From assembly GCA_009835395.1 (NCBI GenBank), contig VXXM01000068.1, forward strand, positions 1,494 through 65,493: a DNA stretch of 64,000 bases, in the 5' to 3' direction. The notes beneath the pieces were generated by a model. The model was not told the origin of the DNA. It worked only from the letters and a program-made list of their open reading frames with translations, and did not search any database. The translations under genes and the position numbers were made by a program. Positions 8,136 through 22,926 of the stretch are shown in pieces; within the stretch, counting starts at the first letter, position 1, and every line of letters begins with the position of its first letter. The stretch is from Acidimicrobiia bacterium (GTDB lineage: Bacteria; Actinomycetota; Acidimicrobiia; Acidimicrobiales; CATQHL01).

Positions 8136-8420
8136 TCAGACCTCGTCGCGAAGCTCCTTCGGCATGGCCTTGGCCGCGTATTTCCGCCAGTTGTCCTGCA
8201 GGGCATCGATGAGCTGCTGCACGAACAGCGGCGACATGTGGATCCGCTGGACCACGACGCCGTTGCGGGGCTCGACACCGTCGAAGTTCATGCGCACGAA
8301 GTCCAGCGTGAATTCGTAGGGGCTGTGCGTGACGGCCGCGAAGTTGGCCCAGCAGCCCCCCTCCAACTCCGGCGGCAACCGGATCGGCACCTCGCGCTTC
8401 TTCTCACCCTCCGTTGACAT
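8136..8420 (-). CDS. DUF3467-like small protein (94 aa)
   Basis: Sequence MSTEGEKKREVPIRLPPELEGGCWANFAAVTHSPYEFTLDFVRM.... The ATG at 8420 is preceded by GGAGG. The long upstream extension in the track is a shadow. Confidence 0.7.
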   Translation of the reverse strand: MSTEGEKKREVPIRLPPELEGGCWANFAAVTHSPYEFTLDFVRMNFDGVEPRNGVVVQRIHMSPLFVQQLIDALQDNWRKYAAKAMPKELRDEV

Positions 8421-8548
8421 ATCGACCTCCCGTCCTCGCCGGCCCGGCCGGAACACCCGAGCCGGCCTGCGCAACCAATAGCATCGCAGACCCGGTCGCG
8501 GCCCGTGCCCGCTCGCCGAGCGGCCCCGGGATTCGCCGCCCGAGATGG

Positions 8549-9361
8549 CTACTCGCCGGTGTAGTTGGGCTTTCGTTTTTGGACGAAGGCTTCGACGCCC
8601 TCGCGGAAGTCGGCTGTGGTGCGGAGGAAGCCGTAGGCGAGGCCCTCCAACTCGAGGCCCACGGGCAGCGGGCCGTCGTAGGCCTGGTTGAGGACCCGCT
8701 TCGCCATTCGGAGCGCCAGGGTGGGGAGTTTCGTGAGTTCGGCCACCAGGCGGTCGGTGGCCGTGTCGAGTTCGGCCCGGGGGACGACCTCGGACACCAG
8801 GCCGACGGCCATCGCCTCGTCCGCCGGCATGCGCCGGCCGCGCATCACCAGGTCCTTGGCTCGGCCCAGGCCGATCATGCGGGCCAGGCGCTGCGAGCCG
8901 CCGCTGCCGGGGATCATGCCGATGGACACCTCGGGCTGGCCGAGTTGCAGGTCGTCGGCGGCGATGCGGAAGTCGCAGGCGAGGGCGAGTTCCAGACCCA
9001 CGCCGAAGGTGAAGCCGTGCAGCTTGGCGATCACCGGCTTCGGGCAGCGCTCGGGGGCGGCCACGTTGTGGTGCAGGCGGGTGAGCACCTCCGGTGAGGC
9101 CTCCAGGAAGCCGGCGATGTCGCCGCCGGCGGTGAAGGCCCGCTCCCCCGCCCCGGCCAGCACGACCACGCGCACATCCGGGTCGCGGCCGCATGCCTCG
9201 AAAAGCGCCGAGAGGTGCTCGCGGGCCAGCATCGAGACGCGGTTCAGCTTGCCCGGCACGTCCAGGGTGATGGTGGCTGTGCCCCGCTCGGGATCGCGCT
9301 CGAAGCGCAGGCCGTCCAAGTCCTCGGGGTAGCTCACCGGTTCGGGATCTGTCGCAGGCAC
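8549..9361 (-). CDS. Enoyl-CoA hydratase/isomerase (crotonase) family protein, in the HmfE-like position
   Basis: Crotonase fold motifs are present (VVVLAGAGERAFTAGGDI..., GFTFGVGLELALACDFRIAA, GMIPGSGGSQRL). The GTG at 9361 sits 6 nt after GAAGGAG. Confidence 0.88.
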   Translation of the reverse strand: MPATDPEPVSYPEDLDGLRFERDPERGTATITLDVPGKLNRVSMLAREHLSALFEACGRDPDVRVVVLAGAGERAFTAGGDIAGFLEASPEVLTRLHHNVAAPERCPKPVIAKLHGFTFGVGLELALACDFRIAADDLQLGQPEVSIGMIPGSGGSQRLARMIGLGRAKDLVMRGRRMPADEAMAVGLVSEVVPRAELDTATDRLVAELTKLPTLALRMAKRVLNQAYDGPLPVGLELEGLAYGFLRTTADFREGVEAFVQKRKPNYTGE

Positions 9362-9377
9362 GGATCGGCTCCTTCGG

Positions 9378-10976
9378 TCATCGTCGCAGTCCAGCATTCT
9401 GCTCGCGCAGGACGCGGCGCAGGATCTTGCCGGACGGGCTCTTCGGCAGGGCTTCAGGAAAGCGGTACCGGCGGGGGCGCTTGAAGCGGGCCAGGTCGGC
9501 GGACTCCAGGCAGTAGGCGTCGAGCCGGGCCACGGCGGCGTGCTCGCCGGCCTCGGCAAGCTCGTCGTCGAGCACCACGAAGGCGGTGACCGCCTGGCCC
9601 CAGCGGTCGTCGGGCAGGCCGACCACCGCCACCTCCCGCACGCCCGGTGCCCGCTCCAGCACGTCCTCCACCTCCAGAGGGTGGACGTTCTCGCCGCCGC
9701 TGATGATCATGTCGTCGATCCGGCCGACGATCCAGAGGTTGCCGTCGTCGTCGAGGCGGCCCAGGTCACCGGTGAAGTACCAGTCGCCGCGGATCGCCCT
9801 GGCGTCGGCGTCGGGGCGGTTCCAGTAGCCGGCGAAGGCCTCATCGGAGCCGAGATGGCAGATGATCTCGCCGGTCTCGCCCGGCGCCACCTCGTCGTCG
9901 GGCCCGGTACCGGGTTCGGGGCGCACCAGGCGCAGCCGGGCGTTGGTGGCCGGCCGGCCGGCGCAGCCGGGAGCGGCGCGCTGATCGAAGTCGACCGAGT
10001 AGGTGTAGATCTCGGTGGAGCCGTAGTGATTGATGAACACCTCGGGGGCGAAGACCGCGACGCAGCGCTCCACGAGAGCGCTGGTCATGGCAGCCCCGGC
10101 GTAGGCCAGCGAGTGCACGCTGGACACGTCGGCGCCCGCGAGGTCCGGCAAGTGGACCAGATCGTGGAACAGCGTCGGGGCCAGGTACAGAGATCCGATT
10201 CGCTCAGACTCGATGAGTTCCAGTGCCGCCGCCGCGTCCCAGTCGGGTTGGCAGACGAAGCAGCCGCCGACGATCTGCGCCGCCAAGACCGTGTGGATGC
10301 CCATGGTGTGGTACAGCGGCATCACGCCGAGCGTGCGCTCGCCGGGCCGGTAGCTCTGGTGTAGCGACTGCGACAGACCGCCGGCCCGCTCGGCGGCGTG
10401 ACTGCGGGGCACCCCCTTGGGCCGGCCGGTGGTGCCGGAGGTGTACAGGAAGATGGACGTCTCACGGTCGTCCAGATCCTCGGGCGCGCCGGGCGCCTCA
10501 CCGGCTGCCAGCAGGCTCTCGTACGGCTCGCAGGGTTGCGCCTCGCCCCCGGCGCAGAACCGTGCCGCCAGGTCGGCGGAGGATCCGGCGCCGGCGGTGC
10601 CGACCGCCACGAATCGATCCACCGCGTCCGTGCACGCCCGGGCGTGCTCGAGGCCGACGTCCTCGAAGGCCACGACTGTGGCGCCGGAGTCGGCGACGCA
10701 GTAGGCCACGTCAGCGGCCGCAACCCGCCACGACAGCGGCACCACGACAGCCCCGAGCCACTGGCAGGCCCAGTACAACTCGACGGCCTCCCGGCGATTC
10801 TTCAACACGAGGGCCATCCGGTCGCCGCGGCCGACGCCCAACGATGCGAGCCCGCCCGCGACCTTGGCGGCGACCCGCTGCAAGTCCCGGTAGTCCAGAC
10901 AGGAGTCCCCGTCCACGACGGCGTCGGCCTCGGGCGTGCGCTCGGCGGCGTACAGCAGCGAGAGGCCCAGGTTCAC
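9378..10976 (-). CDS. AMP-dependent acyl/aryl-CoA ligase, in the HmfD-like position
   Basis: Motifs LYTSGTTGRPKGV, ...YGSTE..., ...GDWYFTGDLGRLDDDGNLWIVGRIDDMIISGGENV... and ...PKSPSGKILRR. The GTG at 10976 overlaps the upstream stop (GTGA). Confidence 0.9.
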   Translation of the reverse strand: MNLGLSLLYAAERTPEADAVVDGDSCLDYRDLQRVAAKVAGGLASLGVGRGDRMALVLKNRREAVELYWACQWLGAVVVPLSWRVAAADVAYCVADSGATVVAFEDVGLEHARACTDAVDRFVAVGTAGAGSSADLAARFCAGGEAQPCEPYESLLAAGEAPGAPEDLDDRETSIFLYTSGTTGRPKGVPRSHAAERAGGLSQSLHQSYRPGERTLGVMPLYHTMGIHTVLAAQIVGGCFVCQPDWDAAAALELIESERIGSLYLAPTLFHDLVHLPDLAGADVSSVHSLAYAGAAMTSALVERCVAVFAPEVFINHYGSTEIYTYSVDFDQRAAPGCAGRPATNARLRLVRPEPGTGPDDEVAPGETGEIICHLGSDEAFAGYWNRPDADARAIRGDWYFTGDLGRLDDDGNLWIVGRIDDMIISGGENVHPLEVEDVLERAPGVREVAVVGLPDDRWGQAVTAFVVLDDELAEAGEHAAVARLDAYCLESADLARFKRPRRYRFPEALPKSPSGKILRRVLREQNAGLRR

Positions 10977-11464
10977 GACGTCACTTCGGGCGTAGTGCCG
11001 GTGCCGGCCACGGCCGCGATGGCGTCGATGATGGGGGCGTAGCCGGTGCAGCGGCAGAGGTGCCCCGAGAGCATCTCGGCGATCTCGCGGCGGGTCGGCG
11101 TCGGGTTGTGGGCCAGGAAGTCCAGCGCGGCCATCAGGATGCCGGGCGTGCAGAAGCCGCATTGCAGGGCGAAGTGCTCCCGGAAGGCCTCCTGCAGCGG
11201 GTGCAGCCGGTCACCGGAGGCCAGGCCCTCCACGGTGCGCAGCTCGGTGCCGTCGGCCTGGGCGGCCAGCAGCAGGCACGAGCGCACGGCCGCGCCCTCG
11301 AGGTGCACGGTGCAGGAGCCGCACACCCCGTGCTCGCAGCCCACGTGCGTGCCGGTGAGTCCGAGGCGCTGGCGCAGGAAGTCCGAGAGCAGCATCCGGT
11401 CGGATGCCGCCTCGCGGTAGCGCCGGCCGTTGACGGTGACGGCGATCTCGCGGTGGTCGCTCAC
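10973..11464 (-). CDS. (2Fe-2S)-binding small subunit of a xanthine-dehydrogenase-family Mo-hydroxylase
   Basis: Two [2Fe-2S] cysteine motifs are present: GCEHGVCGSCTV and CGFCTPG...CRCTGY. The GTG start overlaps the upstream stop (GTGA). Confidence 0.93.
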   Translation of the reverse strand: MSDHREIAVTVNGRRYREAASDRMLLSDFLRQRLGLTGTHVGCEHGVCGSCTVHLEGAAVRSCLLLAAQADGTELRTVEGLASGDRLHPLQEAFREHFALQCGFCTPGILMAALDFLAHNPTPTRREIAEMLSGHLCRCTGYAPIIDAIAAVAGTGTTPEVTS

Positions 11465-12360
11465 GGGCCGCCCTCCCCCGCCCGGTCATCCGCGTCCAGC
11501 CAGCCCTGGCGGATCACCTGCTCGCTCAGCAGGCTCACGAGTTGCCGCCGGTAGGCCACCGAGGCGTGCAGATCCTCGAACGGCTGGGCCGCAGCGGCGG
11601 CCAGACTCGCCGCCTCACGCACCGCCTCATCGCCGGCAGCCCCGTCCAGGCTCTGACCCACCAGGACGCCGGCAGCCTCGCCGGCCAGCAGCGGCCGATC
11701 GGCCACCGCCCCCAGACCCAGCCGCACCTCGGCAACCACCCCGTCTCGGCGCCGCAGCGCGCAGGCCGCCATGGCGAGCGCGTAGTCGCCGTGTCGCTGG
11801 GCCATCTCGGCGAAGCCGTAGCCCCAGCCCGGCGCCGCAGCCGGCCAGCGAACGTCGGTGAGCAACTCGTCGGGTTCCAGGGCCGACGTGAAGTGGTACA
11901 GGAACAGATCCTCGGCGGCGATGCTGCGCCGACCACGCCGCGACTCCGCAAGCACCGAACCGCCCAGGGTGAGCAGCACCAGCGGCAGCTCGCCGCGGGC
12001 GTCGGCATGCGCCAGCGAGCCGCCGACCGTGCCCCGGTTGCGGGTCACGAAGTGCCCGATGTAGGGCGCGCAGGCGGCCGTCAGCGGCAGCGCCCCGCGC
12101 AGCTGCGGCGAACGCTCGAACGCCGACTGACGCAGCATGGCCCCGGTGGTCACATCGCCGTTGTCGGCGCGCACTTCGGCGAGGCCCCCGACGCGGTTCA
12201 CGTCGACGAGGACCTCGGGGCGCGCCAGGCGCATGTTCAGCATGGGGACGAGGCTGCAGCCGCCGGCCAGCACCTTGGCCTCATCGCCATGGGTGGCCAG
12301 CAGAGCCAGGGCCTCCTCCAGGCTGTCCGGGCGCACGTAACGGAACGGCGGCGGCTTCAC
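11461..12360 (-). CDS. FAD-binding medium subunit of the Mo-hydroxylase (CoxM/XdhB-like)
   Basis: N-terminus reads F.YVRPDSLEEALALLATHGDEAKVLAGGCSLVPMLNMR, with a ...GTVGGSLAHADA... FAD-binding fold. There is no extra Cys cluster. The GTG start overlaps the upstream stop. Confidence 0.9.
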   Translation of the reverse strand: MKPPPFRYVRPDSLEEALALLATHGDEAKVLAGGCSLVPMLNMRLARPEVLVDVNRVGGLAEVRADNGDVTTGAMLRQSAFERSPQLRGALPLTAACAPYIGHFVTRNRGTVGGSLAHADARGELPLVLLTLGGSVLAESRRGRRSIAAEDLFLYHFTSALEPDELLTDVRWPAAAPGWGYGFAEMAQRHGDYALAMAACALRRRDGVVAEVRLGLGAVADRPLLAGEAAGVLVGQSLDGAAGDEAVREAASLAAAAAQPFEDLHASVAYRRQLVSLLSEQVIRQGWLDADDRAGEGGP

Positions 12361-14762
12361 GAGCCTTCCCTCCCGCCGGCGCCGGCAAGGGCCTCCCAGA
12401 CTCGCGGTGCGGTCAGTGGAAGGTCGGGTCCGTCGAGGCCCAGAGCGTCGCAGACGGCGTTGGCCAGGGCGGCGGGGGCGCTCATGGTGTTGCCCTCCCC
12501 GAGGCCCTTGGCGCCGAGCGGCGTGAAGGGCGACGGTGTGCAGCGGTGCAGGATGCGCAGATCGGCCACCTCGGTCGAGGTGGCGCAGAGATAGTCCATG
12601 AAGCTGCCGGTCAGCAGGTTGCCGTCGTCGTCGTGGACGGTCTGCTCCAGCAGGGCCGGACCCAGGCCGTGGGCGAAGCTCCCCAGGATCTGGCCGTCCA
12701 CCAGGCGGGGGTGCAGCAGCGTGCCCGCGTCGTGCACCGTGACGTAGTCGAGGATCCGCACCTCACCGGTCGCGATGTCCACCTCCACCACCGCCACGTC
12801 GACCACGAACCCGTGCGCCGCCGAGGAGGCCACCTCGTCGGCGTCGTTGGGCGGGTCCAGGTTCGGGGCCGACACGAAGGCGGTCACCGCCAAGCCCGGC
12901 TCCAGCCCCGCCGGCAGCGACTCGGGATTCCAGTGCGCCGCCCCGGCGAGGCGGCGCAGCGAGACGCCGCGGTCGGGCTGGCCCACCACGCGGGCCTGCC
13001 CGTCGACGAGTTCCACGTCGGCCGGCGCGCACTCCAGGACGTCGCCCGCGATGCGGCGCAGCTTCCGCGCCAGTTGCGCCGCCGCCTCGGCGACGGCCGC
13101 GGCCCCGATCCCGGCGAAGCGGGAGGAGTAGTTCCCCGACGACACCGTCCAGGCGTTCACGTGGGTGTCCATCTCGCTCTGGACCTCCACGTCGGCGGGG
13201 CTGAGACCCAGGACGTCGGCGGCCACCTGGGCGGCCACGGTCCGGTGACCCTGCCCCTGCGGCACGGTGGAGAGCCGCACGGTCACCCCGCCGAGGGGGT
13301 TCATGGCCAGCGTGGCGCCCTCGGCATTGCCGGACTTCGGCCAGCCCCTGGCGCGCTCCTCCGCCGTCTCGGCGAGGGAGATGTAGCCCATGTTCGAGAT
13401 CGACGGCTCCACCACGCAGGCCAGCCCGATGCCCAGGCGCAGGCGGTCATCCCCGCCGGCGCGCCGCTCGGCTTGGCGTCGCCGCAGGCCCTCGTAGTCC
13501 ACGGCCTCGATCGCGTCGTCGAGGCAGGCGGCGTAGTCGCCGGAGTCGTACAGGCCACCTGTCGGCGTCCGGTACGGGAACGCCTCGGGCGGCACGAGGT
13601 TCCTGCGCGCCACCTCGACGGGGTCGAGACCCAGGCGGGCGGCGCCCCGCTCCATGATGCGCTCCAGTGCCAGGTACAGCTGCGGTCCGCCGAAGCCCCG
13701 GTTCAGCCCGGTCGGGCAGCGGTTGGTGTGGACGACCCGGTTGCGCACGGCCACGTTGTGCACGGCGTAGGCGCCGGTCAGCGAGCCGTGCATCCGGTAG
13801 AGGGTGGCCGGCTCGGGCGCCCGCAGGTAGGCCCCCACGTCCTCGATCACGTCGTAGCGCAGTGCCAGCAACTCGCCGTCGGCGGCGAAGGCGGCCTCCA
13901 CGTCGGTCACCCGGTGCGTGGCCGATCCGCTCGCAGCGAGATGCTCGACACGGTCCTCGATCCAGCGCACCGGCACACCGCAGATCTTCGAGGTGAGGCC
14001 GGCCAGGACGATGTAGCCGAACACGCCGGCCTTCACGCCGAAGCTCCCGCCGGAATCGGGCGGGGTGACGAGACGCAGCCGGGCGGCGGGCAGCCCCAGG
14101 GCTCCGGCCGCGACGGTGTGCAGGGTGAACGGCCCCTGGAAGTTGGCCCACACCGTGAGCGAGTCCGCGGCGTGGTCCCAATCGGCGATCACGCCGAAGC
14201 ACTCCACCGGGGCGGCGATCCAGCGACCGAACGGGAACCGGCCTCGAACCAGGGCGTGAGCGGCGGCGAACGCGGCCTCGGGGTCGCCGTAGCGGAACGA
14301 CCGATCCGACACCACCCGGCCCGCCTCGGCCGCCGCCAGTGGATCCACCAGCGCCTCGAGCGGCTCGTAGTCCACGTCCACCAGTTCCGCGGCGTCTTCT
14401 GCCAGGTAGCGGTCCCGCGCCACCACGACCGCCACCGGCTCGCCGGCGTAGCGGGCGACGTCTACGGCCACCGCGTGATGCTCGGTGGCGCCGCGGATCA
14501 CCGCTCCCAGGGGCCGGCCGGTCGCCGCCAGGTCGGCGCCTGTGAGCACCGCCAGGGTGCCCGGCGACGCCGCGGCGGCCGAGGTGTCGATGCCGCGGAT
14601 CCGCGCATGCGCGAACGGTGACCGCACCAGCGCCAGGTGCATCGCCCCCGGGACCGGCGAGAGATCGTCGATGAAGCGCCCCCGGCCCCGCAGCAGCGTC
14701 TCGTCCTCCACCCGGTGCGGGGTGGCGCCGATCCATCCGCCCGAGGCGCTCGCGCCGCTCAC
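12357..14762 (-). CDS. Molybdopterin-binding large subunit of a xanthine-dehydrogenase-family hydroxylase (801 aa)
   Basis: N-terminus reads RVEDETLLRGRGRFIDD.... The active-site loop is ...GLNRGFGGPQ..., which is XDH-like RGFGGPQ rather than the CODH AYXCSFR loop. The GTG at 14762 is preceded by GGAAGGG. Confidence 0.9.
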   Translation of the reverse strand: MSGASASGGWIGATPHRVEDETLLRGRGRFIDDLSPVPGAMHLALVRSPFAHARIRGIDTSAAAASPGTLAVLTGADLAATGRPLGAVIRGATEHHAVAVDVARYAGEPVAVVVARDRYLAEDAAELVDVDYEPLEALVDPLAAAEAGRVVSDRSFRYGDPEAAFAAAHALVRGRFPFGRWIAAPVECFGVIADWDHAADSLTVWANFQGPFTLHTVAAGALGLPAARLRLVTPPDSGGSFGVKAGVFGYIVLAGLTSKICGVPVRWIEDRVEHLAASGSATHRVTDVEAAFAADGELLALRYDVIEDVGAYLRAPEPATLYRMHGSLTGAYAVHNVAVRNRVVHTNRCPTGLNRGFGGPQLYLALERIMERGAARLGLDPVEVARRNLVPPEAFPYRTPTGGLYDSGDYAACLDDAIEAVDYEGLRRRQAERRAGGDDRLRLGIGLACVVEPSISNMGYISLAETAEERARGWPKSGNAEGATLAMNPLGGVTVRLSTVPQGQGHRTVAAQVAADVLGLSPADVEVQSEMDTHVNAWTVSSGNYSSRFAGIGAAAVAEAAAQLARKLRRIAGDVLECAPADVELVDGQARVVGQPDRGVSLRRLAGAAHWNPESLPAGLEPGLAVTAFVSAPNLDPPNDADEVASSAAHGFVVDVAVVEVDIATGEVRILDYVTVHDAGTLLHPRLVDGQILGSFAHGLGPALLEQTVHDDDGNLLTGSFMDYLCATSTEVADLRILHRCTPSPFTPLGAKGLGEGNTMSAPAALANAVCDALGLDGPDLPLTAPRVWEALAGAGGREGS

Positions 14763-14813: not shown

Positions 14814-15989
14814 TCAGCCGTCCCCACCGGAGTCCAGAGCCTGCGCCACCAACTCCAGCGGGTGGCGCACGTCCAGACCGGCCGCCGCCAGGTGCAGGGA
14901 GCAACCGGGGTTGGCGCTGGCGACCACCGACGCCCCTGAACGTTCCACTGCCGCGGTCTTGCGGGCCCGGATGGCCATCGCCAGCTCGGGTTCCAGCATC
15001 GAGTAGGCGCCGCCGGCACCGCAGCAGAGGCCGTCGTCGTCGAGGGTCACCAGCTCCCGCACGAACGGCCCCAGCACCACCGGCACCGCCTCGTGGCTGC
15101 GCTGCGCATGGCGCAGGTGGCACGGGTCCTGCACGGCCACGGTCAACTCCAGCGGCGCGGCGGGGCGGCTGCCCAGCAGCACGTCGAGCCGGTCCGCCAG
15201 CCACTCGTGGACGTCGAACACGCGGGCCGCGAAGTCACGCGCCTCGGCAGTCCCCAGCAGGCGCCCGTAGTGCTTCATCGCCGCCCCGCAGCCCGCGGAG
15301 TCCACGAGCACGGGCCGGTCGTCAGCCGACAGGGCAGCCATGACCTGGCGGGCCATGGCGACGGCGTCGGGCTCCAAACCGGCGTGGGCGTGCAGCGCGC
15401 CGCAGCAGGGCGCCGCCCCGGCGGTGGGGGTCACGCCGACGCCAGCGGCTTCGAGGACCCGCTGGACGGCGAGATGGGTGTGACGCTGCCAGGCGTCCAT
15501 GACGCAGCCGGTGAAGAGCCAGACGTCGGACCCGGAGGCGCGGTGGCGGCCCCGGCGCAGCGGCAGGCGCGCCGGCAGGCCCAGCCGCCGGGCCGGCAGG
15601 AGGCCGAGCCGGCCGGCGAGCGCCAGCAGCGTGGAGCCGGCCAGCAGTAGGCGGCGGTGCCGCAGCAGCCTCAGCCCCAGACGCTGCCACCGCGGGGTGA
15701 TGCGCCTCTCGGCGGCCAGCGCGGCCCGGGTTCCCTCCATGAGGTGCCCGAAGGGCACACCGCTGGGGCAGGCCGTCTCGCAGCCGAGGCACTGCACGCA
15801 GGTCTCCATCGACCGCAGTACCTCGTGGGTGACCGGCGCCGCCTCGTCCTGCACCGCCCGCATTAGGGCGATGCGACCCCGCGGCGATTCGGTGTCGCGC
15901 CCGGTGATCACGAATGTCGGGCAGTGCGGCAGGCAGAGGCCGCACGCCACGCAGGAGTTGAGTTCGTCGTCGTCCAGACCGAGGTTCAT
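14814..15989 (-). CDS. glcF: Glycolate oxidase-type iron-sulfur subunit
   Basis: Two 4Fe-4S motifs (CVACGLCLPHCP and CVQCLGCETACP) plus CCG-domain-like C-terminal halves (...GCVMD..., ...CCGAGG...). The ATG at 15989 overlaps the upstream stop (TGATG). The 588-aa ORF is over-extended. Confidence 0.88.
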   Translation of the reverse strand: MNLGLDDDELNSCVACGLCLPHCPTFVITGRDTESPRGRIALMRAVQDEAAPVTHEVLRSMETCVQCLGCETACPSGVPFGHLMEGTRAALAAERRITPRWQRLGLRLLRHRRLLLAGSTLLALAGRLGLLPARRLGLPARLPLRRGRHRASGSDVWLFTGCVMDAWQRHTHLAVQRVLEAAGVGVTPTAGAAPCCGALHAHAGLEPDAVAMARQVMAALSADDRPVLVDSAGCGAAMKHYGRLLGTAEARDFAARVFDVHEWLADRLDVLLGSRPAAPLELTVAVQDPCHLRHAQRSHEAVPVVLGPFVRELVTLDDDGLCCGAGGAYSMLEPELAMAIRARKTAAVERSGASVVASANPGCSLHLAAAGLDVRHPLELVAQALDSGGDG

Positions 15990-16948
15990 CAGTTCCGCCG
16001 CAGCGGGTCGCGACCGGGGTTGAGGCGGCCGGTCGGATCGAAACGTTCCTTCATGCGCCGGTTCAGCTCGGCGACGCCCGGTGCCACAGGTCGGTGCGGT
16101 TGCGGCTCCGAGGCGTGCACCACACCGACTCCGATCTCGGCCACGAAGTCGATGCCAGCGGTGGCACCGTTCGGCGCCGCGCCGTTGCCGCTGCCGAAGG
16201 CGGCTGCCTCGGCCGGGGTGCACGACCAGCGGTGCGGCGGCAGCGCGGGTGGTCCCTCGACATCGGCCACCTCGCCGAGCTCGCCGAGAATCGCCCGGTC
16301 GGCGGCCGTGTCCGCGGCGTAGCCGCTCAGCAGCACCCAGGTCGCGCCGCCGTCCCAGAGGATCGAGTTGGCGGTGCGGCAGCGCTGCCACACCTGGCGG
16401 GGATCCACCGCCTCGAGGCGGAACCAAGCCTCCGACTCGGGGATCGGAACGGTGCGCAGCAGCGCCTCCCCGAGCAGGCCGAGGGTGCCGAGCGAGCCCA
16501 CGAGCAGCCGGCACAGGTCGAAGCCGCTGACGTTCTTCACCGTGCCGGCGCCGCCGGTGGCCACCCGCCCGTCGGCGCACACGTAGCGGGCCTGCAGCAG
16601 GGCGTCGCGCACGGGCCCGAGCCCCAGCCGGGTGATCGCCGACTCGCCGACCATCAATGCCCCGCCCACGGTGCCGCCCGGCCGCTCCGGCAGGGCGGTG
16701 CGCTGGCCCGAGGCAGCCAGGGCCTCGTGGAGTTCCGCCACGGTGGTGCCGGCGCGCACCCGCACCGTCATCTCGGCCGGCTCGAACGCCACAACGCCCG
16801 CCGGCGCGCGCAACTCCCGCGTGCCGGGCGCCACCTCGCCGCCGACGTGCCGACGGGTACCGCCGCCGCGCACGCCCACCGGCCCCTCCGGACCGACCTC
16901 GGTGGCGAAGTCGGTCAGCACCGGGTCGATCGTGCCCACGGTCGTCAT
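15989..16948 (-). CDS. glcE: Glycolate oxidase-type FAD-binding subunit
   Basis: FAD_binding_4-like fold (...FEPAEMTVRVRAGTTVAELHEAL...GGTVGGAL...VKNVSGFDLCRLLVGSLGTLG...) located between glcD and glcF. Confidence 0.8.
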   Translation of the reverse strand: MTTVGTIDPVLTDFATEVGPEGPVGVRGGGTRRHVGGEVAPGTRELRAPAGVVAFEPAEMTVRVRAGTTVAELHEALAASGQRTALPERPGGTVGGALMVGESAITRLGLGPVRDALLQARYVCADGRVATGGAGTVKNVSGFDLCRLLVGSLGTLGLLGEALLRTVPIPESEAWFRLEAVDPRQVWQRCRTANSILWDGGATWVLLSGYAADTAADRAILGELGEVADVEGPPALPPHRWSCTPAEAAAFGSGNGAAPNGATAGIDFVAEIGVGVVHASEPQPHRPVAPGVAELNRRMKERFDPTGRLNPGRDPLRRN

Positions 16949-16964
16949 CGCTGCCGCACCTCGC

Positions 16965-18470
16965 TCAGCCCCAGATCTTCCCGTCGGCGGCCCGCAGCAA
17001 GCCGATGTCGGCGCAGCTGTGAGCGCTGGGCAGCACCTTGCCGGGGTTCAGCCGGCAGTGCGGGTCGAATGCGGCCCGCAGCCGGCTCTGCTGGTCGAGA
17101 TCGGCGTCGCTGAACATGCGCTCCATGTAGTCGCGCTTCTCCACGCCGATGCCGTGCTCGCCCGAGAGGGCCCCACCCACCGCCAGCGAGGCCTCGATGA
17201 TCTCCCGGCCGGCGGCGTGCACGCGCTCCATGGTGCCGGGGACGCGGGCATCGAAGGCCAGGATGGGATGCAGGTTGCCGTCGCCGGCGTGGAACACGTT
17301 GAGCGCGGTCAGTTCGTATCGGTCGGCGATCTCGTAGACCTGCTCGAGCACCTCCACCAGGCGGCTGCGCGGCACCACGGTGTCATGCAGGTAGTAGTCG
17401 GGAAGGATGTTGGCGACCGCCCCGAAGGCGCTCTTGCGGCCCTTCCAGAGCCGCGCCCGCTCGGCGTCGTCGGCGGCGACCCGCACGCTCACAGCCCCGT
17501 TGGCGGTGGCGATCCTTGCCACCCGCTCGGCAGAGGCGGCCACCCCGCCGGGGGGACCGTCCACCTCCACGAGCAACACCGCGGCTGCGTCACGCGGGTA
17601 GCCGGCCTTGGCGAAGTCCTCGATGGCGCTGATGCAGCGCCGGTCCAACATCTCCAGGGCGGCCGGCACGATGCCGTCGGCGATGATCGCACCAACCGTG
17701 GCCGCGCCCGACGACACGTCGTTGTAGGCCATGAGCATCGTGCTCACGGCCGCCGGGTTGGGGGTGAGACGCACGGCCGCGCCCGTGGCGATGCCGCACA
17801 TCCCCTCCGAGCCGACGAACGCCCCGCGCAGGTCGTAGCCGGCGGGCTCGGCGTCGAGTCCGCCGAGGGTCACGACGGAGGCGTCCGACAGCACCACCTC
17901 CAGCGCCACCACGTGGGCGCTGGTCACGCCGTAGGCCAGGCAGTGCGGCCCGCCGGAGTTGGTGGCCACGTTTCCGCCGATCGTGCAGGCCTGCTGGCTC
18001 GACGGATCCGGCGCGTAGTGCATCCCGTAGGGCGCCAGCCGCCGCGACAGCTCCAGGTTCACCATGCCGGGCTGCACCCACGCCACGCCGTTGTCGAGGT
18101 CCACCGACAGCAGCTCGTTCATGCGGGTGAGCGACAGCACCACGGGCCGGCCCAGGGGCGCGGCGCCGCCCGAGAGTCCCGTGCCCGCCCCTCGTGGCAC
18201 CACGGCGCGGCCGTGGTCGGCCGCGATCCGCACGCAGGCGCTGACCTGTTCGGTGGTGACGGGGAAGCACAGCGGCCCAGCAGTGCCCTCGCTGTAGATG
18301 GAGGCGTCGCGGGAGGCGAGGTAGCGGGCGGCGGCGTCGGCCCGCACCCGCTCGGCGCCGACGGCCGCACGCAACTCGGCGACGAGGGCGGCGTCGGCCT
18401 CCCCTTCAGGCTCGGGTCGGTGCGCCCGGCGCCCCAGGCGGCGCGCCGCGGCGGCGAGCAGCGGCGACAT
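16965..18470 (-). CDS. glcD: FAD-linked oxidase, glycolate oxidase / D-2-hydroxyacid dehydrogenase subunit
   Basis: Motifs ...VVPRGAGTGLSGGAAP..., ...HYAPDPSSQQACTIGGNVATNSGGPHCLAYGVT... and a C-terminal ...GEHGIGVEKRDYM.... The ATG overlaps the upstream stop (TGATG). Confidence 0.9.
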   Translation of the reverse strand: MSPLLAAAARRLGRRAHRPEPEGEADAALVAELRAAVGAERVRADAAARYLASRDASIYSEGTAGPLCFPVTTEQVSACVRIAADHGRAVVPRGAGTGLSGGAAPLGRPVVLSLTRMNELLSVDLDNGVAWVQPGMVNLELSRRLAPYGMHYAPDPSSQQACTIGGNVATNSGGPHCLAYGVTSAHVVALEVVLSDASVVTLGGLDAEPAGYDLRGAFVGSEGMCGIATGAAVRLTPNPAAVSTMLMAYNDVSSGAATVGAIIADGIVPAALEMLDRRCISAIEDFAKAGYPRDAAAVLLVEVDGPPGGVAASAERVARIATANGAVSVRVAADDAERARLWKGRKSAFGAVANILPDYYLHDTVVPRSRLVEVLEQVYEIADRYELTALNVFHAGDGNLHPILAFDARVPGTMERVHAAGREIIEASLAVGGALSGEHGIGVEKRDYMERMFSDADLDQQSRLRAAFDPHCRLNPGKVLPSAHSCADIGLLRAADGKIWG

Positions 18471-18790
18471 CAGGGGTCCGTGGACTTGACGGCCGCCCGC
18501 TGGATCAGATCCTCGCTGGGTCCGTCAGAGGTGCACAGCGCCCGGAAGGCCTCCAACACCAGCATCGGGGAGTTGCGGTGGCGCTTGGCGGCGACGGCCA
18601 GCGGCTCGTGGAACGCCCCGCTGCAGTGGGCGCACGGCCAATTGAGGCGTGACATCAGCCTGGCCGCCTCACCGCCGGGGAACATGCGCAGGACCTCCAC
18701 GACGGTGGTCCTGCCCTTGATCTCCCGGGCGTCTGTGGGCGGCTCAGCGGGCCCAGCCGTCCCGCGCCCGCTGATGCCGCGCACCGTCAC
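18470..18790 (-). CDS. DUF1858 / redox-disulfide-like small protein with a CxxC motif (CAHC)
   Basis: C-terminal sequence ...TTVVEVLRMFPGGEAARLMSRLNWPCAHCSGAFHEPLAVAAKRHRNSPMLVLEAFRAL.... It is translationally coupled to glcD. The start is uncertain: GTG at 18790 or 18784, or the internal ATG of MFPGG. Confidence 0.55.
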   Translation of the reverse strand: MTVRGISGRGTAGPAEPPTDAREIKGRTTVVEVLRMFPGGEAARLMSRLNWPCAHCSGAFHEPLAVAAKRHRNSPMLVLEAFRALCTSDGPSEDLIQRAAVKSTDP

Positions 18791-18807: not shown

Positions 18808-20223
18808 TCAGAGGCGCACCTGCTCGAGCACCCGCACGTCCTCGGAATGCATGCGGATGGCGTTGCGTGGCAGCTGGTAGCGGGCGAACGGCAGCACGAT
18901 CACCTTGGCGTCGGGGCCGTGGCGCTCCATGGCCGCGCCGAAGGCCTCGTCGAGGCTGGTTGTGGCGTCGAGGCCGATGTCGGCAGCCATCTCCAGGTTC
19001 TCCTCCAGGGTGACCATCGTGAGGTGCTTGCGGGTCATCACCTCGTAGATGGGCACCCATATGCAGCCGGCCCACATCTGGATGTTGCGGCCGTGGATGT
19101 CGCGCAGCACCTTCTGGTAGTTCTCCGGCGAGGCCGGCATGTAGGGCTTCATGAGGTCCATCAGCGCCAGGCCGGGGAAGTCGCCGATCGCCGTGGACAC
19201 CCCCGGTGAGGGCGAGCAGTAGATGATCGTGCCGCCCTCGCGCACCACCAGGTCCGAGGACATGCAGCCCCAGCCGGTGTGGAAGAACAGGTGGTCGGTG
19301 GGGGCGAACACGCCGCAGACGGCGATGTCGGCCGGACCGGCCTCGGCCACCGGATTGTCGTAGGCGTAGATGGCGTTGAACCGGTTGATGGCCTCGATGT
19401 GCGCGTCGGGGTGCGCGCCGTAGATGCAGTCGATGACGCGGCCGCGGGTGTCCAGCAGCACGTTCATGGTGGCCGAGAGGCCGCACATCGTGGCGGTCTC
19501 GTCGATGTCGGCCCGCATGGGCCCGGCGTAGGCCCCGTAGTGGGTCTGCGGCGACGGCACGAAGGCGCAGTGGTTGGACTCGACGGTCTCGTCGGACACC
19601 ACGCCCGGCAGGATCAGCTTGCCGCCGCCGCCGGCACCCCAGTGGTTGGCCTGCGCGTGGCCGATGGTGAAGATGACCTCCGAGCGGGCCACCTCGTTGT
19701 GCAGCCACACGGGAGTGCCCCGGGAGGTGACGCCCACGAAGCTGTAGTTGTCGGCGTTGCGAGGCTCGTTCTGGAAGAAGCCGATGCCCATGCGCTCCAT
19801 GCGGGCCAGGTTCTCGTCGCCCAGCTTCTGGGAGATGTCGCTGTCGGACATCGGGAAGACCTTGCCGTTGGCACACACCACCCGGGCGTCGGTGATCCCC
19901 GCGGCCTCGATGGCGTCGAACACCGGCGGCAGCAGCTTGGAGGCCGGCGTCGGCCGGAACTGGTTGTCGATGACCACCGCCACGCTGGAGGCACCGGCCA
20001 GGAGTTCGCTGAACCGCGGCCCGCTGTGCGGGCTCTCCAGGGCCGCCCGGGCGGCCTCGGTGGCGTTGGGCACCGGATCCGGCTCGTCCGGGTAGATGGC
20101 CGCCAGCAGGTTCTCGTCGGAGATCTCCAACTCGAGAGTCTCCCGGTACACCTTGGTCTCGTCGTCGGCGGCGCCGATCGTCAACGGATCAAGGGACTCG
20201 TACGGAATCGAGTATCTGCCCAT
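18808..20223 (-). CDS. LarA-like (DUF2088) nickel-pincer-dependent 2-hydroxyacid racemase/epimerase homolog (471 aa)
   Basis: Core motif ...TIGHAQANHWGAGGGGKLILPGVVSDETVESNHC..., with Lys and His 16 residues apart as in the LarA cofactor-binding Lys/His pair (recalled from memory). The ATG at 20223 is preceded by GGGAGGAA. Confidence 0.75.
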   Translation of the reverse strand: MGRYSIPYESLDPLTIGAADDETKVYRETLELEISDENLLAAIYPDEPDPVPNATEAARAALESPHSGPRFSELLAGASSVAVVIDNQFRPTPASKLLPPVFDAIEAAGITDARVVCANGKVFPMSDSDISQKLGDENLARMERMGIGFFQNEPRNADNYSFVGVTSRGTPVWLHNEVARSEVIFTIGHAQANHWGAGGGGKLILPGVVSDETVESNHCAFVPSPQTHYGAYAGPMRADIDETATMCGLSATMNVLLDTRGRVIDCIYGAHPDAHIEAINRFNAIYAYDNPVAEAGPADIAVCGVFAPTDHLFFHTGWGCMSSDLVVREGGTIIYCSPSPGVSTAIGDFPGLALMDLMKPYMPASPENYQKVLRDIHGRNIQMWAGCIWVPIYEVMTRKHLTMVTLEENLEMAADIGLDATTSLDEAFGAAMERHGPDAKVIVLPFARYQLPRNAIRMHSEDVRVLEQVRL

Positions 20224-20332: not shown

Positions 20333-21292
20333 CTATGGGGGCGGCAGAGGGCGGCCGTCGGCGATTGCGGCGCGGAACCAGTCGGCGGTCTCCGCCACGC
20401 CCTCGGCGAGGGGCGTGCGCGGAACCGAGCCCAGGCGTGCCTCGAGCGCGCTGTCGTCGAGCCCGCGGGGGAAGGGCAGCTGATCGGTTCCGTGGGTGAT
20501 CCCCGCGAAGTCGGTGGTCCCGATGATGGCCTCGACGAAGGAGGCGACCGGGGCCAAGCTGCCGTGGATGTTGTAGACGTCGCAGCCGCCCGGCTCGGCC
20601 CGCGCTGCGCCGATCACGATGCGCGCCACGTCGGAGGCGTACTGGAAGTCCATCCACCCGCCGTAGTCGATGTGGTAGGGCAGGCCCCGCACGGCGGCCA
20701 GCAGCGCCTGGCACGGGTAGGACGTGACGCCCTGGTCGCGGCCCGGTCCGTACACGGTGTGCGGGCGCAGGCCCACGCTGGGGGTGCCGTTCTCCTCCCA
20801 GTACACCCTGGCGGTGTCCTCGTTGGCCACCTTGTAGACGCCATAGTGCGTGGCCGGGTGGCGCTGGGCGTCGTTGGGCAGGGCGTCGGCGTCGTACAGG
20901 TCCGGATGGCCGAATACGGCCACGCTGCTGGTGTAGACGAGATTGTCGATTCCGTGCGCCTGAGCCGCCTCGAAGACGTTGGCGGTGCCGGCCACGTTGA
21001 TGGCGGCGCCCAGGGGCGGGTTGGCCCGGCAGGTCGGCACCTGCAGGGCCCCCAGGTGGATGATGTGGGTTGCACCCGCGGCGGCGGCCAGCACCTGATC
21101 GGTCACCGTGAGGTCGCCCTGGATGCGCCGGGGACCGGCCAGGTCGGCCTCATCGACGATGAGCCGCAGCCGCTTGTCGTCGGTGCTGATGTCGAAGAGC
21201 GTCATCTCGGCGCCCTCGTGGGACAGGTGGCGCACGACCCAGGCGCCGATGCAGCCCATGGCGCCCGTGATGAGGAAATGTTCTTCACTCAC
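20333..21292 (-). CDS. NAD-dependent epimerase/dehydratase (extended SDR)
   Basis: Rossmann motif ITGAMGCIGAWV and catalytic YGVYK. The GTG start lies 7 nt after GGAGG. Confidence 0.88.
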   Translation of the reverse strand: MSEEHFLITGAMGCIGAWVVRHLSHEGAEMTLFDISTDDKRLRLIVDEADLAGPRRIQGDLTVTDQVLAAAAGATHIIHLGALQVPTCRANPPLGAAINVAGTANVFEAAQAHGIDNLVYTSSVAVFGHPDLYDADALPNDAQRHPATHYGVYKVANEDTARVYWEENGTPSVGLRPHTVYGPGRDQGVTSYPCQALLAAVRGLPYHIDYGGWMDFQYASDVARIVIGAARAEPGGCDVYNIHGSLAPVASFVEAIIGTTDFAGITHGTDQLPFPRGLDDSALEARLGSVPRTPLAEGVAETADWFRAAIADGRPLPPP

Positions 21293-21362
21293 AGAAGCAC
21301 CTCCGTCTCAGAATTGTCCGTTCCGGCGACTCCAGTGGCGCGGCCTGCCCGCACCGCCGGGT

Positions 21363-22196
21363 CTAGACGCACCGGTTGGTGATCTCGCCGAGGCCCTCGA
21401 TGGTCGAGACGATCACGTCGCCGGGTGCCAGGTACTGCGGCGGATCCATACCGAATCCCACACCCGACGGCGTCCCGGTGAAGATGATGTCGCCGGGGAG
21501 CAGTTCGCAGATCGACGACAGGTAGGTGATCAGGCGCGGGACGTCGTTGATGAAGTACGTGGTGCGGGCGTCCTGCATCATGACGCCGTTGACCGAGCAG
21601 GTCAGGCCCAGATCCCATGGATTCTCCAGCTCGTCGAGGGTCACCACCGCCGGGCCGACCGGCGAGAAGTTGCGGTGCGACTTGCCCAGGTTGAACTGCG
21701 GGTACCCGCCGGCGAACTGGCCGATCCGCTCGCTCACGTCCTGCCCCACCGTGAACCCGGCGATGTGGTCGGCGATGTCGCCGGCCGCGATGTCCCGCCC
21801 GGCGCGCCCGATCACGACCACCAACTCCACTTCCCAGTCGCAGTTGCCGGGCACGAGCGGGACCTCGGCGTTCGGCGCGGCCATGCAGGACGGGAACTTG
21901 GTGAACACCAGCGGATCGTCGGGGACCTCCATCCCCGACTCGCCGGCGTGGTCGGCGTAGTTGAGACCGATGCCGAACACCTGCGGCGGGCGCGGCACCG
22001 GGCAGGTCAGGTCGTCGGCGCGGTAGGCCTCGCCGCCGGCGGGGGCGTTGTCGGCGGCCCACGCCAGGAATTCGTCCCACCTGCCCAGGACCTGCATCGG
22101 ATCGGGCCCGAAGGCACCTCCGGAGGCCTCGGCGATGTCCCAGGCCCGGTCGCCGGCCAGGCCCACTGCACGATGATCGATTGCTGCCATTCGCAT
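21363..22196 (-). CDS. Fumarylacetoacetate hydrolase (FAH) family protein
   Basis: Motifs ...QVFGIGLNYADHAGE...PLVFTKFPS...DWEVELVVVIG...GDIIFTGTPSGVG.... The start is the ATG at 22196 (or 22190). Confidence 0.88.
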   Translation of the reverse strand: MRMAAIDHRAVGLAGDRAWDIAEASGGAFGPDPMQVLGRWDEFLAWAADNAPAGGEAYRADDLTCPVPRPPQVFGIGLNYADHAGESGMEVPDDPLVFTKFPSCMAAPNAEVPLVPGNCDWEVELVVVIGRAGRDIAAGDIADHIAGFTVGQDVSERIGQFAGGYPQFNLGKSHRNFSPVGPAVVTLDELENPWDLGLTCSVNGVMMQDARTTYFINDVPRLITYLSSICELLPGDIIFTGTPSGVGFGMDPPQYLAPGDVIVSTIEGLGEITNRCV

Positions 22197-22689: not shown

Positions 22690-22926
22690 ATGACCATGAT
22701 CCAGATGACCGTCGAGGAGCGACCGCAGACCCGCGGCACGTGCCCCGACATCGACCTCGTGGGACCGTTGGAGGCGTGCGAGATGCTCGTCGTCGACGAG
22801 TCCGAACTGCTCGAAATGGTGAACGACGACCAACTCTCCGCCTACCGCCTGGGCGGGCACATCAGGTTCCGCGCCGCCGACGTGGTGCGCCTCGCCAGGA
22901 CCTGCCTCCAGCACGAAGCCGGCTAG
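22690..22926 (+). CDS. Excisionase/MerR-like helix-turn-helix DNA-binding protein (78 aa)
   Basis: The sequence ...ACEMLVVDESELLEMVNDDQLSAYRLGGHIRFRAADVVRLA resembles the excisionase-family HTH_17 signature. AAGGAG lies 6 nt upstream of the ATG. Confidence 0.75.
   Translation: MTMIQMTVEERPQTRGTCPDIDLVGPLEACEMLVVDESELLEMVNDDQLSAYRLGGHIRFRAADVVRLARTCLQHEAG

What the first reader, a model, noticed from the sequence alone, without database searches (positions are those of the whole stretch)
8549..14762. Five-gene cluster with the exact hmfABCDE order: candidate heteroaryl-2-carboxyl-CoA (furoyl-CoA-type) hydroxylation pathway in an actinobacterium
Seen in the sequence: in transcription order on the minus strand the genes are Mo-hydroxylase large subunit (12357-14762), FAD medium subunit (11461-12360), 2Fe-2S small subunit (10973-11464), AMP-dependent CoA ligase (9378-10976) and crotonase-family protein (8549-9361). 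The first four junctions are GTGA overlaps.

Established knowledge:
- The 2-furoate pathway of Cupriavidus basilensis HMF14 is encoded as hmfA (large), hmfB (FAD), hmfC (2Fe-2S), hmfD (furoyl-CoA synthetase) and hmfE (crotonase-like 2-oxoglutaroyl-CoA hydrolase).
- That is the same L-M-S order, and it differs from the coxMSL order of CO dehydrogenases.

Further sequence points:
- The large subunit has an XDH-like RGFGGPQ loop, not the CODH AYXCSFR loop.
- The medium subunit has no extra Cys cluster, which argues against a 4-hydroxybenzoyl-CoA reductase.

Inference: this is a CoA-dependent hydroxylase for furoate or a related heteroaromatic carboxylate (thiophene- or pyrrole-2-carboxylate are alternatives). 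The end product would be 2-oxoglutarate.
Basis: partly seen in the sequence, partly recalled or inferred. Interest (0 to 1): 0.6.

Follow-up and report, generated by a model that had tools for sequence, protein, structure and literature searches.

The report
Furoate-degradation (hmfABCDE) operon, actinobacterial variant
The five genes are a genuine counterpart of the known bacterial operon that breaks down 2-furoic acid (from furfural) to 2-oxoglutarate; that part is ordinary, but in this actinobacterial lineage the operon lacks one usual domain (CoxG) and is always paired with an unusual nickel-cofactor (LarA-like) enzyme of unknown role.

Summary
Five co-directional minus-strand genes at 8549-14762 encode a Mo-hydroxylase large subunit, FAD subunit, 2Fe-2S subunit, AMP-forming CoA ligase and crotonase. 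One correction: three junctions are GTGA overlaps, not four.

- All five proteins are 40-65% identical to HmfA-E of Cupriavidus pinatubonensis, Dinoroseobacter shibae DFL12 and Geobacillus kaustophilus pHTA426.
- They are reciprocal best hits in the window's own genome.
- The large subunit sits inside a strongly supported HmfA clade, sister to proteobacterial HmfA. It is separate from about 12 own-genome paralogs, including a true form-I CoxL.
- JGI already names homologs "2-furoyl-CoA dehydrogenase large subunit", so this part is a routine annotation.

Two variant features go beyond the finding.
- HmfA here lacks the CoxG domain that is fused (Proteobacteria) or adjacent (Bacilli).
- In 21 of 21 genomes of this Actinomycetota clade, and in a second lineage with a different gene order, the operon is preceded by a LarA-like gene plus a small CxxC gene. 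The LarA-like protein keeps the nickel-pincer cofactor-binding residues but has lost both catalytic histidines. Its role is unexplained.

The substrate (furoate versus another heteroaryl carboxylate) was not tested.

The parts
12357..14762 (-). hmfA-like Mo-hydroxylase large subunit (801 aa), without a CoxG tail
   Evidence: Pfam Ald_Xan_dh_C + MoCoBD_1/2. 54/50/51% identity to HmfA of C. pinatubonensis, D. shibae and G. kaustophilus. Inside the HmfA clade with 100/99 support. RGFGGPQ at 355-361 and GLGEGNT at 753-759.
11461..12360 (-). hmfB-like FAD subunit (299 aa)
   Evidence: FAD_binding_5 + CO_deh_flav_C. 40-44% identity to HmfB. Three Cys only, so no Fe-S insertion. GTGA overlap with A.
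10973..11464 (-). hmfC-like 2x[2Fe-2S] subunit (163 aa)
   Evidence: Fer2 + Fer2_2. 55-65% identity to HmfC. GTGA overlaps on both sides.
9378..10976 (-). hmfD-like AMP-forming (furoyl-)CoA ligase (532 aa)
   Evidence: AMP-binding + AMP-binding_C. 46-47% identity to HmfD over the full length. Reciprocal best hit: 438 bits against 159 for the next paralog.
8549..9361 (-). hmfE-like crotonase-family protein (270 aa)
   Evidence: ECH_1. 49-56% identity to HmfE. Both crotonase catalytic Glu positions (E124, E144) are invariant across HmfE homologs. A 16-nt spacer with AAGGAG lies before its GTG.
18808..20223 (-). LarA-like nickel-pincer-nucleotide enzyme (471 aa), conserved companion of the operon
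   Evidence: Lar_N. Best NCBIfam match is malate racemase LarAH6, 183 bits against a cut-off of 500. R75/K184/H200 equivalents are kept, while H108 is Val and H174 is Asn; this is invariant in 21 homologs. It lies upstream of hmfA in all loci of the clade.
18470..18790 (-). Small CxxC (CAHC) protein directly after the LarA-like gene
   Evidence: Read. Conserved next to the LarA-like gene in 20 other loci at 54-87% identity. No Pfam match here. Earlier notes call it DUF1858-like.
14814..18470 (-). glcD/glcE/glcF-like FAD/Fe-S 2-hydroxyacid dehydrogenase genes (16965-18470, 15989-16948, 14814-15989), between the CxxC gene and hmfA
   Evidence: Pfam and NCBIfam. glcE/glcF junction and start. Present at this position only in the window and its 87% relative L007.
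20333..22196 (-). Extended-SDR 'epimerase' (20333-21292) and FAH-family hydrolase (21363-22196)
   Evidence: Pfam, NCBIfam. The pair also lies next to the hmf genes in L004 (directly after hmfE), L006 and L007.
8136..8450 (-). DUF3467 protein downstream of hmfE
   Evidence: PF11950. Found only in the window and L007.

Best explanation
The five genes are the actinobacterial counterpart of hmfABCDE, the 'Trudgill' 2-furoate pathway.

Inferred sequence of steps:
1. D activates 2-furoate (or a very similar five-membered heteroaryl-2-carboxylate) to its CoA thioester.
2. The A-B-C molybdenum hydroxylase (Mo-pterin, then two 2Fe-2S clusters, then FAD) hydroxylates C5 using water and passes two electrons to an acceptor.
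3. The 5-hydroxy product tautomerises to a lactone.
4. The lactone is opened and de-esterified with the help of the crotonase E, giving 2-oxoglutarate.

Shown here: orthology of all five proteins, gene order, phylogenetic position, and conservation of the Mo-site and crotonase catalytic residues.

Inferred: the substrate, the product and the electron acceptor.

The window's organism is an Acidimicrobiia-type actinobacterium. It has no UbiD/UbiX (hmfFG) genes, so it would use furoate or furfural but not HMF or FDCA.

In this lineage the enzyme lacks CoxG. The operon is also coupled to a LarA-like nickel-pincer enzyme plus a CxxC protein, which probably add or replace a step that is still unknown.
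For: Closest annotated matches:
- tblastn of A against 72,556 plasmids gives, as top hits (50-54% identity, 95-98% coverage), the large subunits of hmfABCDE clusters in Cupriavidus, Paraburkholderia phymatum STM815, D. shibae DFL12 and G. kaustophilus pHTA426.
- D. shibae DFL12 and P. phymatum are listed furfural degraders, and C. pinatubonensis JMP134 grows on furoate with hmfABCDE only (PMC3223595, PMC8091172).

Pairwise identity and reciprocity:
- A/B/C/D/E are 54/44/59/47/53% identical to C. pinatubonensis and 51/41/65/47/56% to G. kaustophilus.
- For comparison, C. pinatubonensis and D. shibae HmfA share only 55%.
- Reciprocal best hits have wide margins: A 698 against 404 bits, D 438 against 159, E 235 against 108.

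Phylogeny (careful ML tree):
- The Hmf clade has 100/99 support.
- The window lies in an Actinomycetota clade (100/100) that is sister (100/98) to proteobacterial HmfA.
- Own-genome paralogs lie outside, including a bona fide CoxL (TIGR02416, 1160 bits).

Other support:
- JGI names 65-85% homologs '2-furoyl-CoA dehydrogenase large subunit'.
- Related Actinomycetota clusters carry ALDH + UbiD + UbiX (L088) or ADH + ALDH (L004). These are the usual furfural/FDCA upper-pathway genes.
Against: - No experiment exists on any actinobacterial member. The Gram-positive clusters were only 'to be confirmed' in PMC3223595.
- I compared with orthologs in C. pinatubonensis, D. shibae and G. kaustophilus, not with the C. 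basilensis HMF14 sequences themselves.
- HmfA of HMF14 is 1015 aa (PMC8091172) because of a CoxG tail that is absent here.
- The strict coupling to a LarA-like enzyme, unknown in characterised furoate degraders, could mean a different substrate or an altered route.
- No transporter or classic catabolic regulator lies in the block.
Confidence: 0.75

Rival explanations
1. The machinery is the same, but the physiological substrate is another heteroaryl-2-carboxylate: thiophene-2-carboxylate, pyrrole-2-carboxylate or a substituted furoate. The LarA-like enzyme would serve a step specific to that substrate.
For: Substrate specificity cannot be read from sequence. Identity to proven-context Hmf proteins is only about 50%. 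The clade differs from characterised systems by losing CoxG and gaining the LarA-like/CxxC module. An earlier agent raised the same alternative.
Against: The clade is nested between Bacilli and Proteobacteria clusters that carry furan-specific companions (UbiD/UbiX FDCA decarboxylase homologs, ALDH). No genes are known for the thiophene or pyrrole routes to compare with.
Confidence: 0.15
2. The five genes are only part of a larger 14-gene pathway (FAH, SDR, LarA-like, CxxC, GlcDEF, HmfABCDE, DUF3467). That pathway would handle a 2-hydroxy or 2-oxo acid, for example a sugar-acid-derived compound, and the Hmf-like enzymes would act on a CoA ester that is not an aromatic heterocycle.
For: All 14 genes lie on one strand with short spacers and no terminator-like sites. 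FAH + SDR recur next to the hmf genes in L004, L006 and L007. LarA-family enzymes act on 2-hydroxy acids (PMC11770544).
Against: GlcDEF, FAH, SDR and DUF3467 are not conserved beyond the Acidimicrobiia subclade. XDH-family hydroxylases known to act on CoA esters use aromatic rings (my own knowledge). The orthology to Hmf is strong.
Confidence: 0.07
3. It is a CO dehydrogenase-like, xanthine/quinoline-type hydroxylase or a 4-hydroxybenzoyl-CoA reductase that merely sits beside unrelated fatty-acid genes.
For: The best NCBIfam and PDB sequence matches are CODH and quinoline oxidoreductase. The best NCBIfam hit of the ligase is a 'long-chain-fatty-acid--CoA ligase' subfamily.
Against: All those matches are far below curated cut-offs: 485 against 991 bits for CODH, 332 against 995 for HcrA, 93 against 405 for HcrB. 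There is no AYxCSFR motif and no Fe-S insertion in B. The tree separates it from true CoxL. The five-gene order recurs across phyla.
Confidence: 0.03

Closest known systems
hmfABCDE of Cupriavidus basilensis HMF14 and its orthologs in C. pinatubonensis, D. shibae DFL12 and P. phymatum (2-furoyl-CoA synthetase, 2-furoyl-CoA dehydrogenase, 2-oxoglutaroyl-CoA hydrolase)
   Same: The five protein families are the same and in the same A-B-C-D-E order. Identity is 40-59% per protein. Overlapping start and stop codons are also seen. The two large-subunit clades are sisters in the tree.
   Different: Proteobacterial HmfA is about 1000 aa with a C-terminal CoxG (SRPBCC) domain, while the window's is 801 aa with none. 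No LysR/AraC regulator, MFS transporter, XdhC or hmfFG lies nearby. The LarA-like/CxxC module is present here and absent there.
hmf-like cluster on Geobacillus kaustophilus HTA426 plasmid pHTA426 (Gram-positive putative furfural degrader, PMC3223595)
   Same: L, M, S, ligase and crotonase in the same order. Identity is 51/41/65/47/56%. The large subunit has no fused tail.
   Different: Geobacillus has a separate coxG gene between A and B, plus xdhC, a MocA-like nucleotidyltransferase, UbiD and MFS genes. It has no LarA-like gene.
Form-I aerobic CO dehydrogenase CoxMSL
   Same: Same enzyme superfamily and the same three-subunit cofactor chain. It gives the best PDB sequence match (8uem).
   Different: Gene order is M-S-L. 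The AYxCSFR active-site loop is present in the genome's real CoxL on C22 and absent here. Identity is 34-36%, and the two lie in separate clades.
4-hydroxybenzoyl-CoA reductase HcrABC
   Same: An XDH-family enzyme that acts on an aryl-CoA thioester.
   Different: NCBIfam scores are far below cut-off for all three subunits. B lacks the Cys-rich Fe-S insertion.
LarA superfamily of NPN-dependent 2-hydroxyacid racemases/epimerases (for the companion gene)
   Same: Lar_N fold. The NPN-binding Arg, Lys and His are conserved. larB, larC and larE are present in the genome.
   Different: Both catalytic His positions (108, 174) are replaced (Val, Asn) and this is invariant in the clade. The protein scores below every curated LarAH model. 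The papers read here report no LarA homolog in an hmf context.

Membership tests
hmfABCDE furoate pathway cluster | HmfA homolog at or above the published thresholds (at least 40% similarity, PMC3223595; at least 45% identity, PMC8091172) | tested here: met
   50-54% identity over 95-98% of the length to HmfA orthologs of C. pinatubonensis, D. shibae and G. kaustophilus. This is an indirect test: the HMF14 sequence itself was not available.
hmfABCDE furoate pathway cluster | HmfD (CoA ligase) and HmfE (crotonase) homologs of at least 40% in the immediate vicinity | tested here: met
   D 46-47% and E 49-56%. They are adjacent, co-directional and reciprocal best hits.
hmfABCDE furoate pathway cluster | Canonical gene order A-B-C-D-E | tested here: met
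hmfABCDE furoate pathway cluster | Large subunit falls in the HmfA clade, not with CoxL or other XDH-family clades | tested here: met
   Careful ML tree: Hmf clade 100/99, with own-genome CoxL and other paralogs outside.
hmfABCDE furoate pathway cluster | CoxG (SRPBCC) domain fused to HmfA (about 1000 aa) or encoded in the cluster | tested here: not met
   A is 801 aa. No CoxG is found in any Actinomycetota locus, and the genome's only CoxG lies on contig C89. This trait is common in Proteobacteria and Bacilli, but the literature does not use it as a defining criterion.
hmfABCDE furoate pathway cluster | Growth on, or enzymatic conversion of, 2-furoate to 2-oxoglutarate | not testable with these tools
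   Needs culture or biochemistry.
Form-I CO dehydrogenase | AYxCSFR active-site loop and a TIGR02416 score above the 991-bit cut-off | tested here: not met
   The motif is absent and the score is 484.7 bits. The genome's real CoxL scores 1159.9.
4-hydroxybenzoyl-CoA reductase | Cys-rich [4Fe-4S] insertion in the FAD subunit, and TIGR03193-5 scores above cut-off | tested here: not met
   B has 3 Cys. Scores are 332/92.8/171.5 bits against cut-offs of 995/405/258.
LarA-type racemase (companion gene) | Two catalytic histidines (His108, His174 of L. plantarum LarA) plus NPN-binding Arg75, Lys184 and His200 | tested here: not met
   Arg, Lys and His are conserved, but position 108 is Val and position 174 is Asn (with His at +1). 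This is invariant in 21 sequences. Residue roles are taken from PMC11770544.

The most novel reading that the evidence does not exclude
In soil and water Actinomycetota (Acidimicrobiia, Gaiellales, Thermoleophilia) the furoyl-CoA pathway has recruited a histidine-less LarA-like nickel-pincer-nucleotide enzyme and a small CxxC partner as dedicated components. Together they would catalyse a reaction that is not a racemisation. Two candidates are one of the still unassigned steps after ring hydroxylation (tautomerisation or ring opening), or a redox link that stands in for the missing CoxG-mediated electron outlet. That would be a new reaction type for the NPN cofactor and a new variant of the furoate pathway.
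Probability: 0.3. Interest if true: 0.7.

Novelty: new variant of a known kind. Interest (0 to 1): 0.38.

Why it matters
The core result is a solid but routine annotation. It extends the furoate/furfural lower pathway to uncultured Acidimicrobiia, Gaiellales and Thermoleophilia, groups that are abundant in soil and activated sludge. Furfural and furoate turnover there may therefore not be limited to Proteobacteria.

The more useful outcome is the variant architecture.
- The conserved pairing with an atypical nickel-pincer enzyme gives LarA researchers a concrete metabolic context in which to look for a non-racemase NPN reaction.
- The presence or absence of CoxG gives a handle on how furoyl-CoA dehydrogenase hands its electrons on.

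Tried and rejected
- CODH, XDH, quinoline oxidoreductase or 4-HBCR identity. Rejected by sub-threshold NCBIfam scores, missing motifs and the tree.
- Ligase and crotonase as generic beta-oxidation genes. Rejected by 46-56% identity to HmfD/E and by reciprocal best hits.
- A hidden CoxG in the cluster or genome neighbourhood. None was found; the only CoxG is on contig C89 beside another XDH-type cluster.
- Strict CoxG-or-LarA complementarity. Rejected, because several lineages have neither: f25 Actinomycetota, Dormiibacterota, Tectomicrobia and some Alphaproteobacteria.
- Regulatory signals. No sigma-70-like promoter, intrinsic terminator or Rfam family was found in 7.5-23.5 kb.
- A literature link between LarA homologs and furoate or Mo-hydroxylases. 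None was found.
- Expression or habitat from sequencing runs.
- Pfam assignment of the CxxC protein to DUF1858. No match at E <= 1.
- The top 120 homologs of the LarA-like protein were all at least 78% identical, so they gave no divergent contexts.

Full report
**1. Observation**

The window is 70-75% G+C. The five minus-strand ORFs exist exactly as described.

Pfam and NCBIfam give the expected domains:
- A, 12357-14762: Ald_Xan_dh_C + MoCoBD_1/2.
- B, 11461-12360: FAD_binding_5 + CO_deh_flav_C.
- C, 10973-11464: Fer2 + Fer2_2.
- D, 9378-10976: AMP-binding.
- E, 8549-9361: ECH_1.

Junctions:
- A/B, B/C and C/D are GTGA overlaps.
- D/E has a 16-nt spacer with an AAGGAG Shine-Dalgarno, so there are three overlaps, not four.

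Motifs:
- RGFGGPQ is at residues 355-361 of A.
- No CODH loop is present.
- B has only three scattered cysteines.

The same genome holds a true form-I CoxL (TIGR02416, 1160 bits against a cut-off of 991; AYxCSFR present) in M-S-L order.

**2. Identity of the five genes**

No NCBIfam equivalog reaches its cut-off for any of the five proteins. The same holds for proteobacterial and Geobacillus HmfA. NCBIfam therefore appears to have no Hmf model.

Homolog names:
- Homologs at 65-91% identity come from MAGs of Acidimicrobiia, Thermoleophilia and unnamed bacteria.
- JGI names many of them '2-furoyl-CoA dehydrogenase large subunit'.

tblastn against annotated plasmids gave as best hits (50-54% identity, 95-98% coverage) the first genes of five-gene clusters in:
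- Cupriavidus and Paraburkholderia, including P. phymatum STM815;
- D. shibae DFL12 pDSHI01;
- G. kaustophilus pHTA426.

The annotated regions show the canonical order L-M-S-ligase-crotonase. They carry a LysR or AraC regulator, an MFS or ABC transporter, XdhC, UbiD/UbiX and an aldehyde dehydrogenase.

These are the hmf clusters of the literature:
- D. shibae DFL12 is the confirmed furfural degrader with the most divergent HmfA (54% to HMF14).
- G. kaustophilus is the Gram-positive candidate (PMC3223595).
- C. pinatubonensis JMP134 grows on furoate with hmfABCDE only (PMC8091172).

Pairwise BLASTP:
- Window A/B/C/D/E against C. pinatubonensis: 54/44/59/47/53%.
- Against D. shibae: 50/40/55/46/49%.
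- Against G. kaustophilus: 51/41/65/47/56%.
- The two proteobacterial HmfA share only 55%.

Searching the reference proteins against the window's own 3.16-Mb genome returns the window genes as best hits by wide margins. About 12 other XDH-family large subunits in that genome are at most 38% identical.

**3. Phylogeny**

A quick tree of 46 rows and a careful tree of 31 rows agree:
- All Hmf-context large subunits form one clade (100/99).
- That clade excludes the own-genome paralogs, including true CoxL and an AYRGAGR form-II-like protein.
- The window protein lies in an Actinomycetota clade (100/100) with Acidimicrobiales, Gaiellales and Thermoleophilia MAGs.
- This clade is sister (100/98) to proteobacterial HmfA.
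- Bacilli, a second actinobacterial family (f25), Dormiibacterota and Tectomicrobia branch outside.

**4. Distribution and context**

A scan of GTDB species genomes returned 80 loci. I scored them by tblastn with window and reference proteins.
- The five genes travel together in nearly all loci that are long enough.
- Furan-specific companions (UbiD/UbiX = HmfFG-like, ALDH, MFS) occur in Proteobacteria and Bacilli.
- They also occur in f25 Actinomycetota: L088 has A-D-E-B-C + ALDH + UbiD + UbiX.
- L004 has ADH + ALDH upstream.
- The window's genome has no UbiD/UbiX. Only the lower (furoate) pathway is expected.

**5. Variant features**

(a) CoxG
- The roughly 200-aa C-terminal extension of proteobacterial HmfA is a CoxG/SRPBCC domain. 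Bacilli encode it as a separate gene between A and B.
- No Actinomycetota locus has it.
- The window genome's only CoxG lies on another contig.

(b) LarA-like gene and CxxC gene
- A LarA-like gene (18808-20223) followed by a small CxxC gene (18470-18790) lies upstream of hmfA on the same strand in every genome of the window's clade.
- That makes 21 of 21 genomes. One case looked separate but is a contig break. In one further case (L020, G408) the LarA-like gene is on a different contig of a fragmented assembly, so adjacency could not be checked.
- The pair is often separated from hmfA only by divergently transcribed larB/larC/larE.
- The pairing recurs in a phylogenetically separate lineage with the order D-A-E-B-C (L082, L089).
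- The LarA-like protein is 73-93% identical across these loci. That is more conserved than HmfA (50-87%).
- It keeps the NPN-binding Arg75, Lys184 and His200 equivalents. It has Val at His108 and Asn at His174, invariantly.
- It is the only LarA-family gene in the genome. larB and larC (contig C25) and larE (contig C34) are kept elsewhere.
- In an even sample of 401 genomes of the phylum, the ortholog occurs in three: the window's own genome, G145 (next to hmf) and a fragment in G274.

The association is not universal for Hmf. The f25 Actinomycetota, Dormiibacterota, Tectomicrobia and some Alphaproteobacteria have neither CoxG nor LarA. LarA therefore cannot simply be 'the CoxG substitute'.

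An earlier agent of this scan reached the same association from another genome. I re-derived it independently before seeing that note.

**6. Other neighbours**

In the window the block reads, all on the minus strand:
- a small unassigned ORF (22199-22486);
- FAH;
- extended SDR;
- LarA-like;
- CxxC;
- GlcD, GlcE, GlcF;
- HmfA-E;
- DUF3467.

Spacers are short. No terminator-like, promoter-like or Rfam hits were found. GlcDEF and DUF3467 are shared only with the 87% relative L007. FAH + SDR recur in L004 (directly after hmfE), L006 and L007. Their role is open.

**7. Mechanism**

The best-supported reading is the Trudgill pathway:
1. The ligase makes furoyl-CoA.
2. The Mo-hydroxylase hydroxylates C5 with water.
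3. Tautomerisation gives the lactone.
4. Ring opening and thioester cleavage, involving the crotonase, give 2-oxoglutarate (PMC3223595).

Both crotonase catalytic glutamates are invariant in HmfE homologs. This fits enolate chemistry, not a simple thioesterase, but that is inference.

The substrate, the electron acceptor and the LarA-like step are not shown.

**8. Verdict**

- Observation: confirmed.
- Interpretation: supported.
- The core is a new member of a known, already auto-annotated family.
- The CoxG-less, LarA-coupled architecture makes it a new variant.
- Interest is modest for the finding as written and higher for the LarA link.

Noticed in passing
window 18808-20223 (-) and 18470-18790 (-); loci L004-L021, L059, L064, L078, L082, L089, L091: A LarA-like NPN enzyme with both catalytic His replaced (Val, Asn) plus a small CAHC protein always precede the hmf genes in this Actinomycetota clade. 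The LarA-like protein is more conserved (73-93%) than HmfA itself.
   Followed up: yes
L001 11356-11946, L002 11368-11916, L003 11403-11858: The extra ~200 aa of proteobacterial HmfA (about 1000 aa) is a CoxG/SRPBCC domain. In Bacilli it is a separate gene between hmfA and hmfB. Published descriptions read here do not mention this.
   Followed up: partly
L088 (G141:C22) and L087 (G167:C13): A second actinobacterial family has the order A-D-E-B-C followed by ALDH, UbiD and UbiX, i.e. an HMF/FDCA-type cluster. It has no LarA-like gene anywhere in the genome.
   Followed up: partly
window 22199-22486 (-) and 22690-22926 (+): A 95-aa ORF with no Pfam match ends 2 nt before the FAH start and would be the first gene of the 14-gene block. 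A divergent 78-aa HTH_17 (excisionase/BldC-like) ORF lies in the 630-bp gap before gatB. Both are possible regulators.
   Followed up: partly
own genome contigs C54, C45, C22, C28, C39, C38, C82, C57, C73, C19, C18, C17: The 3.16-Mb genome carries about a dozen XDH/CODH-family large-subunit paralogs. They include a true form-I coxMSL on C22 and an AYRGAGR form-II-like gene on C39.
   Followed up: partly
window 14814-18470 (-): GlcD/GlcE/GlcF-like genes are wedged between the CxxC gene and hmfA. glcE and glcF overlap by 1 nt (TGATG). This arrangement occurs only here and in L007.
   Followed up: partly
L004 3406-7255 and 16003-19431: In a 70% relative the operon is flanked by FAH, a 4-OT-family tautomerase, Zn-ADH and ALDH upstream. 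Downstream lie FAH, SDR and a convergent ThDP enzyme. The ThDP enzyme recurs in L006, L012, L013, L016, L021 and L059.
   Followed up: no
G408:C753:2911-5283 (locus L020): The hmfA ortholog of this Actinomycetota MAG has one in-frame TGA. It may be a sequencing error or a pseudogene.
   Followed up: no
window 6171-8117 (+): A single ORF carries both ETF-beta and ETF-alpha domains (a fused ETF). It is divergent from the block and is a conceivable electron acceptor for the flavoenzymes next door. It was also noted by another first-stage reader.
   Followed up: no
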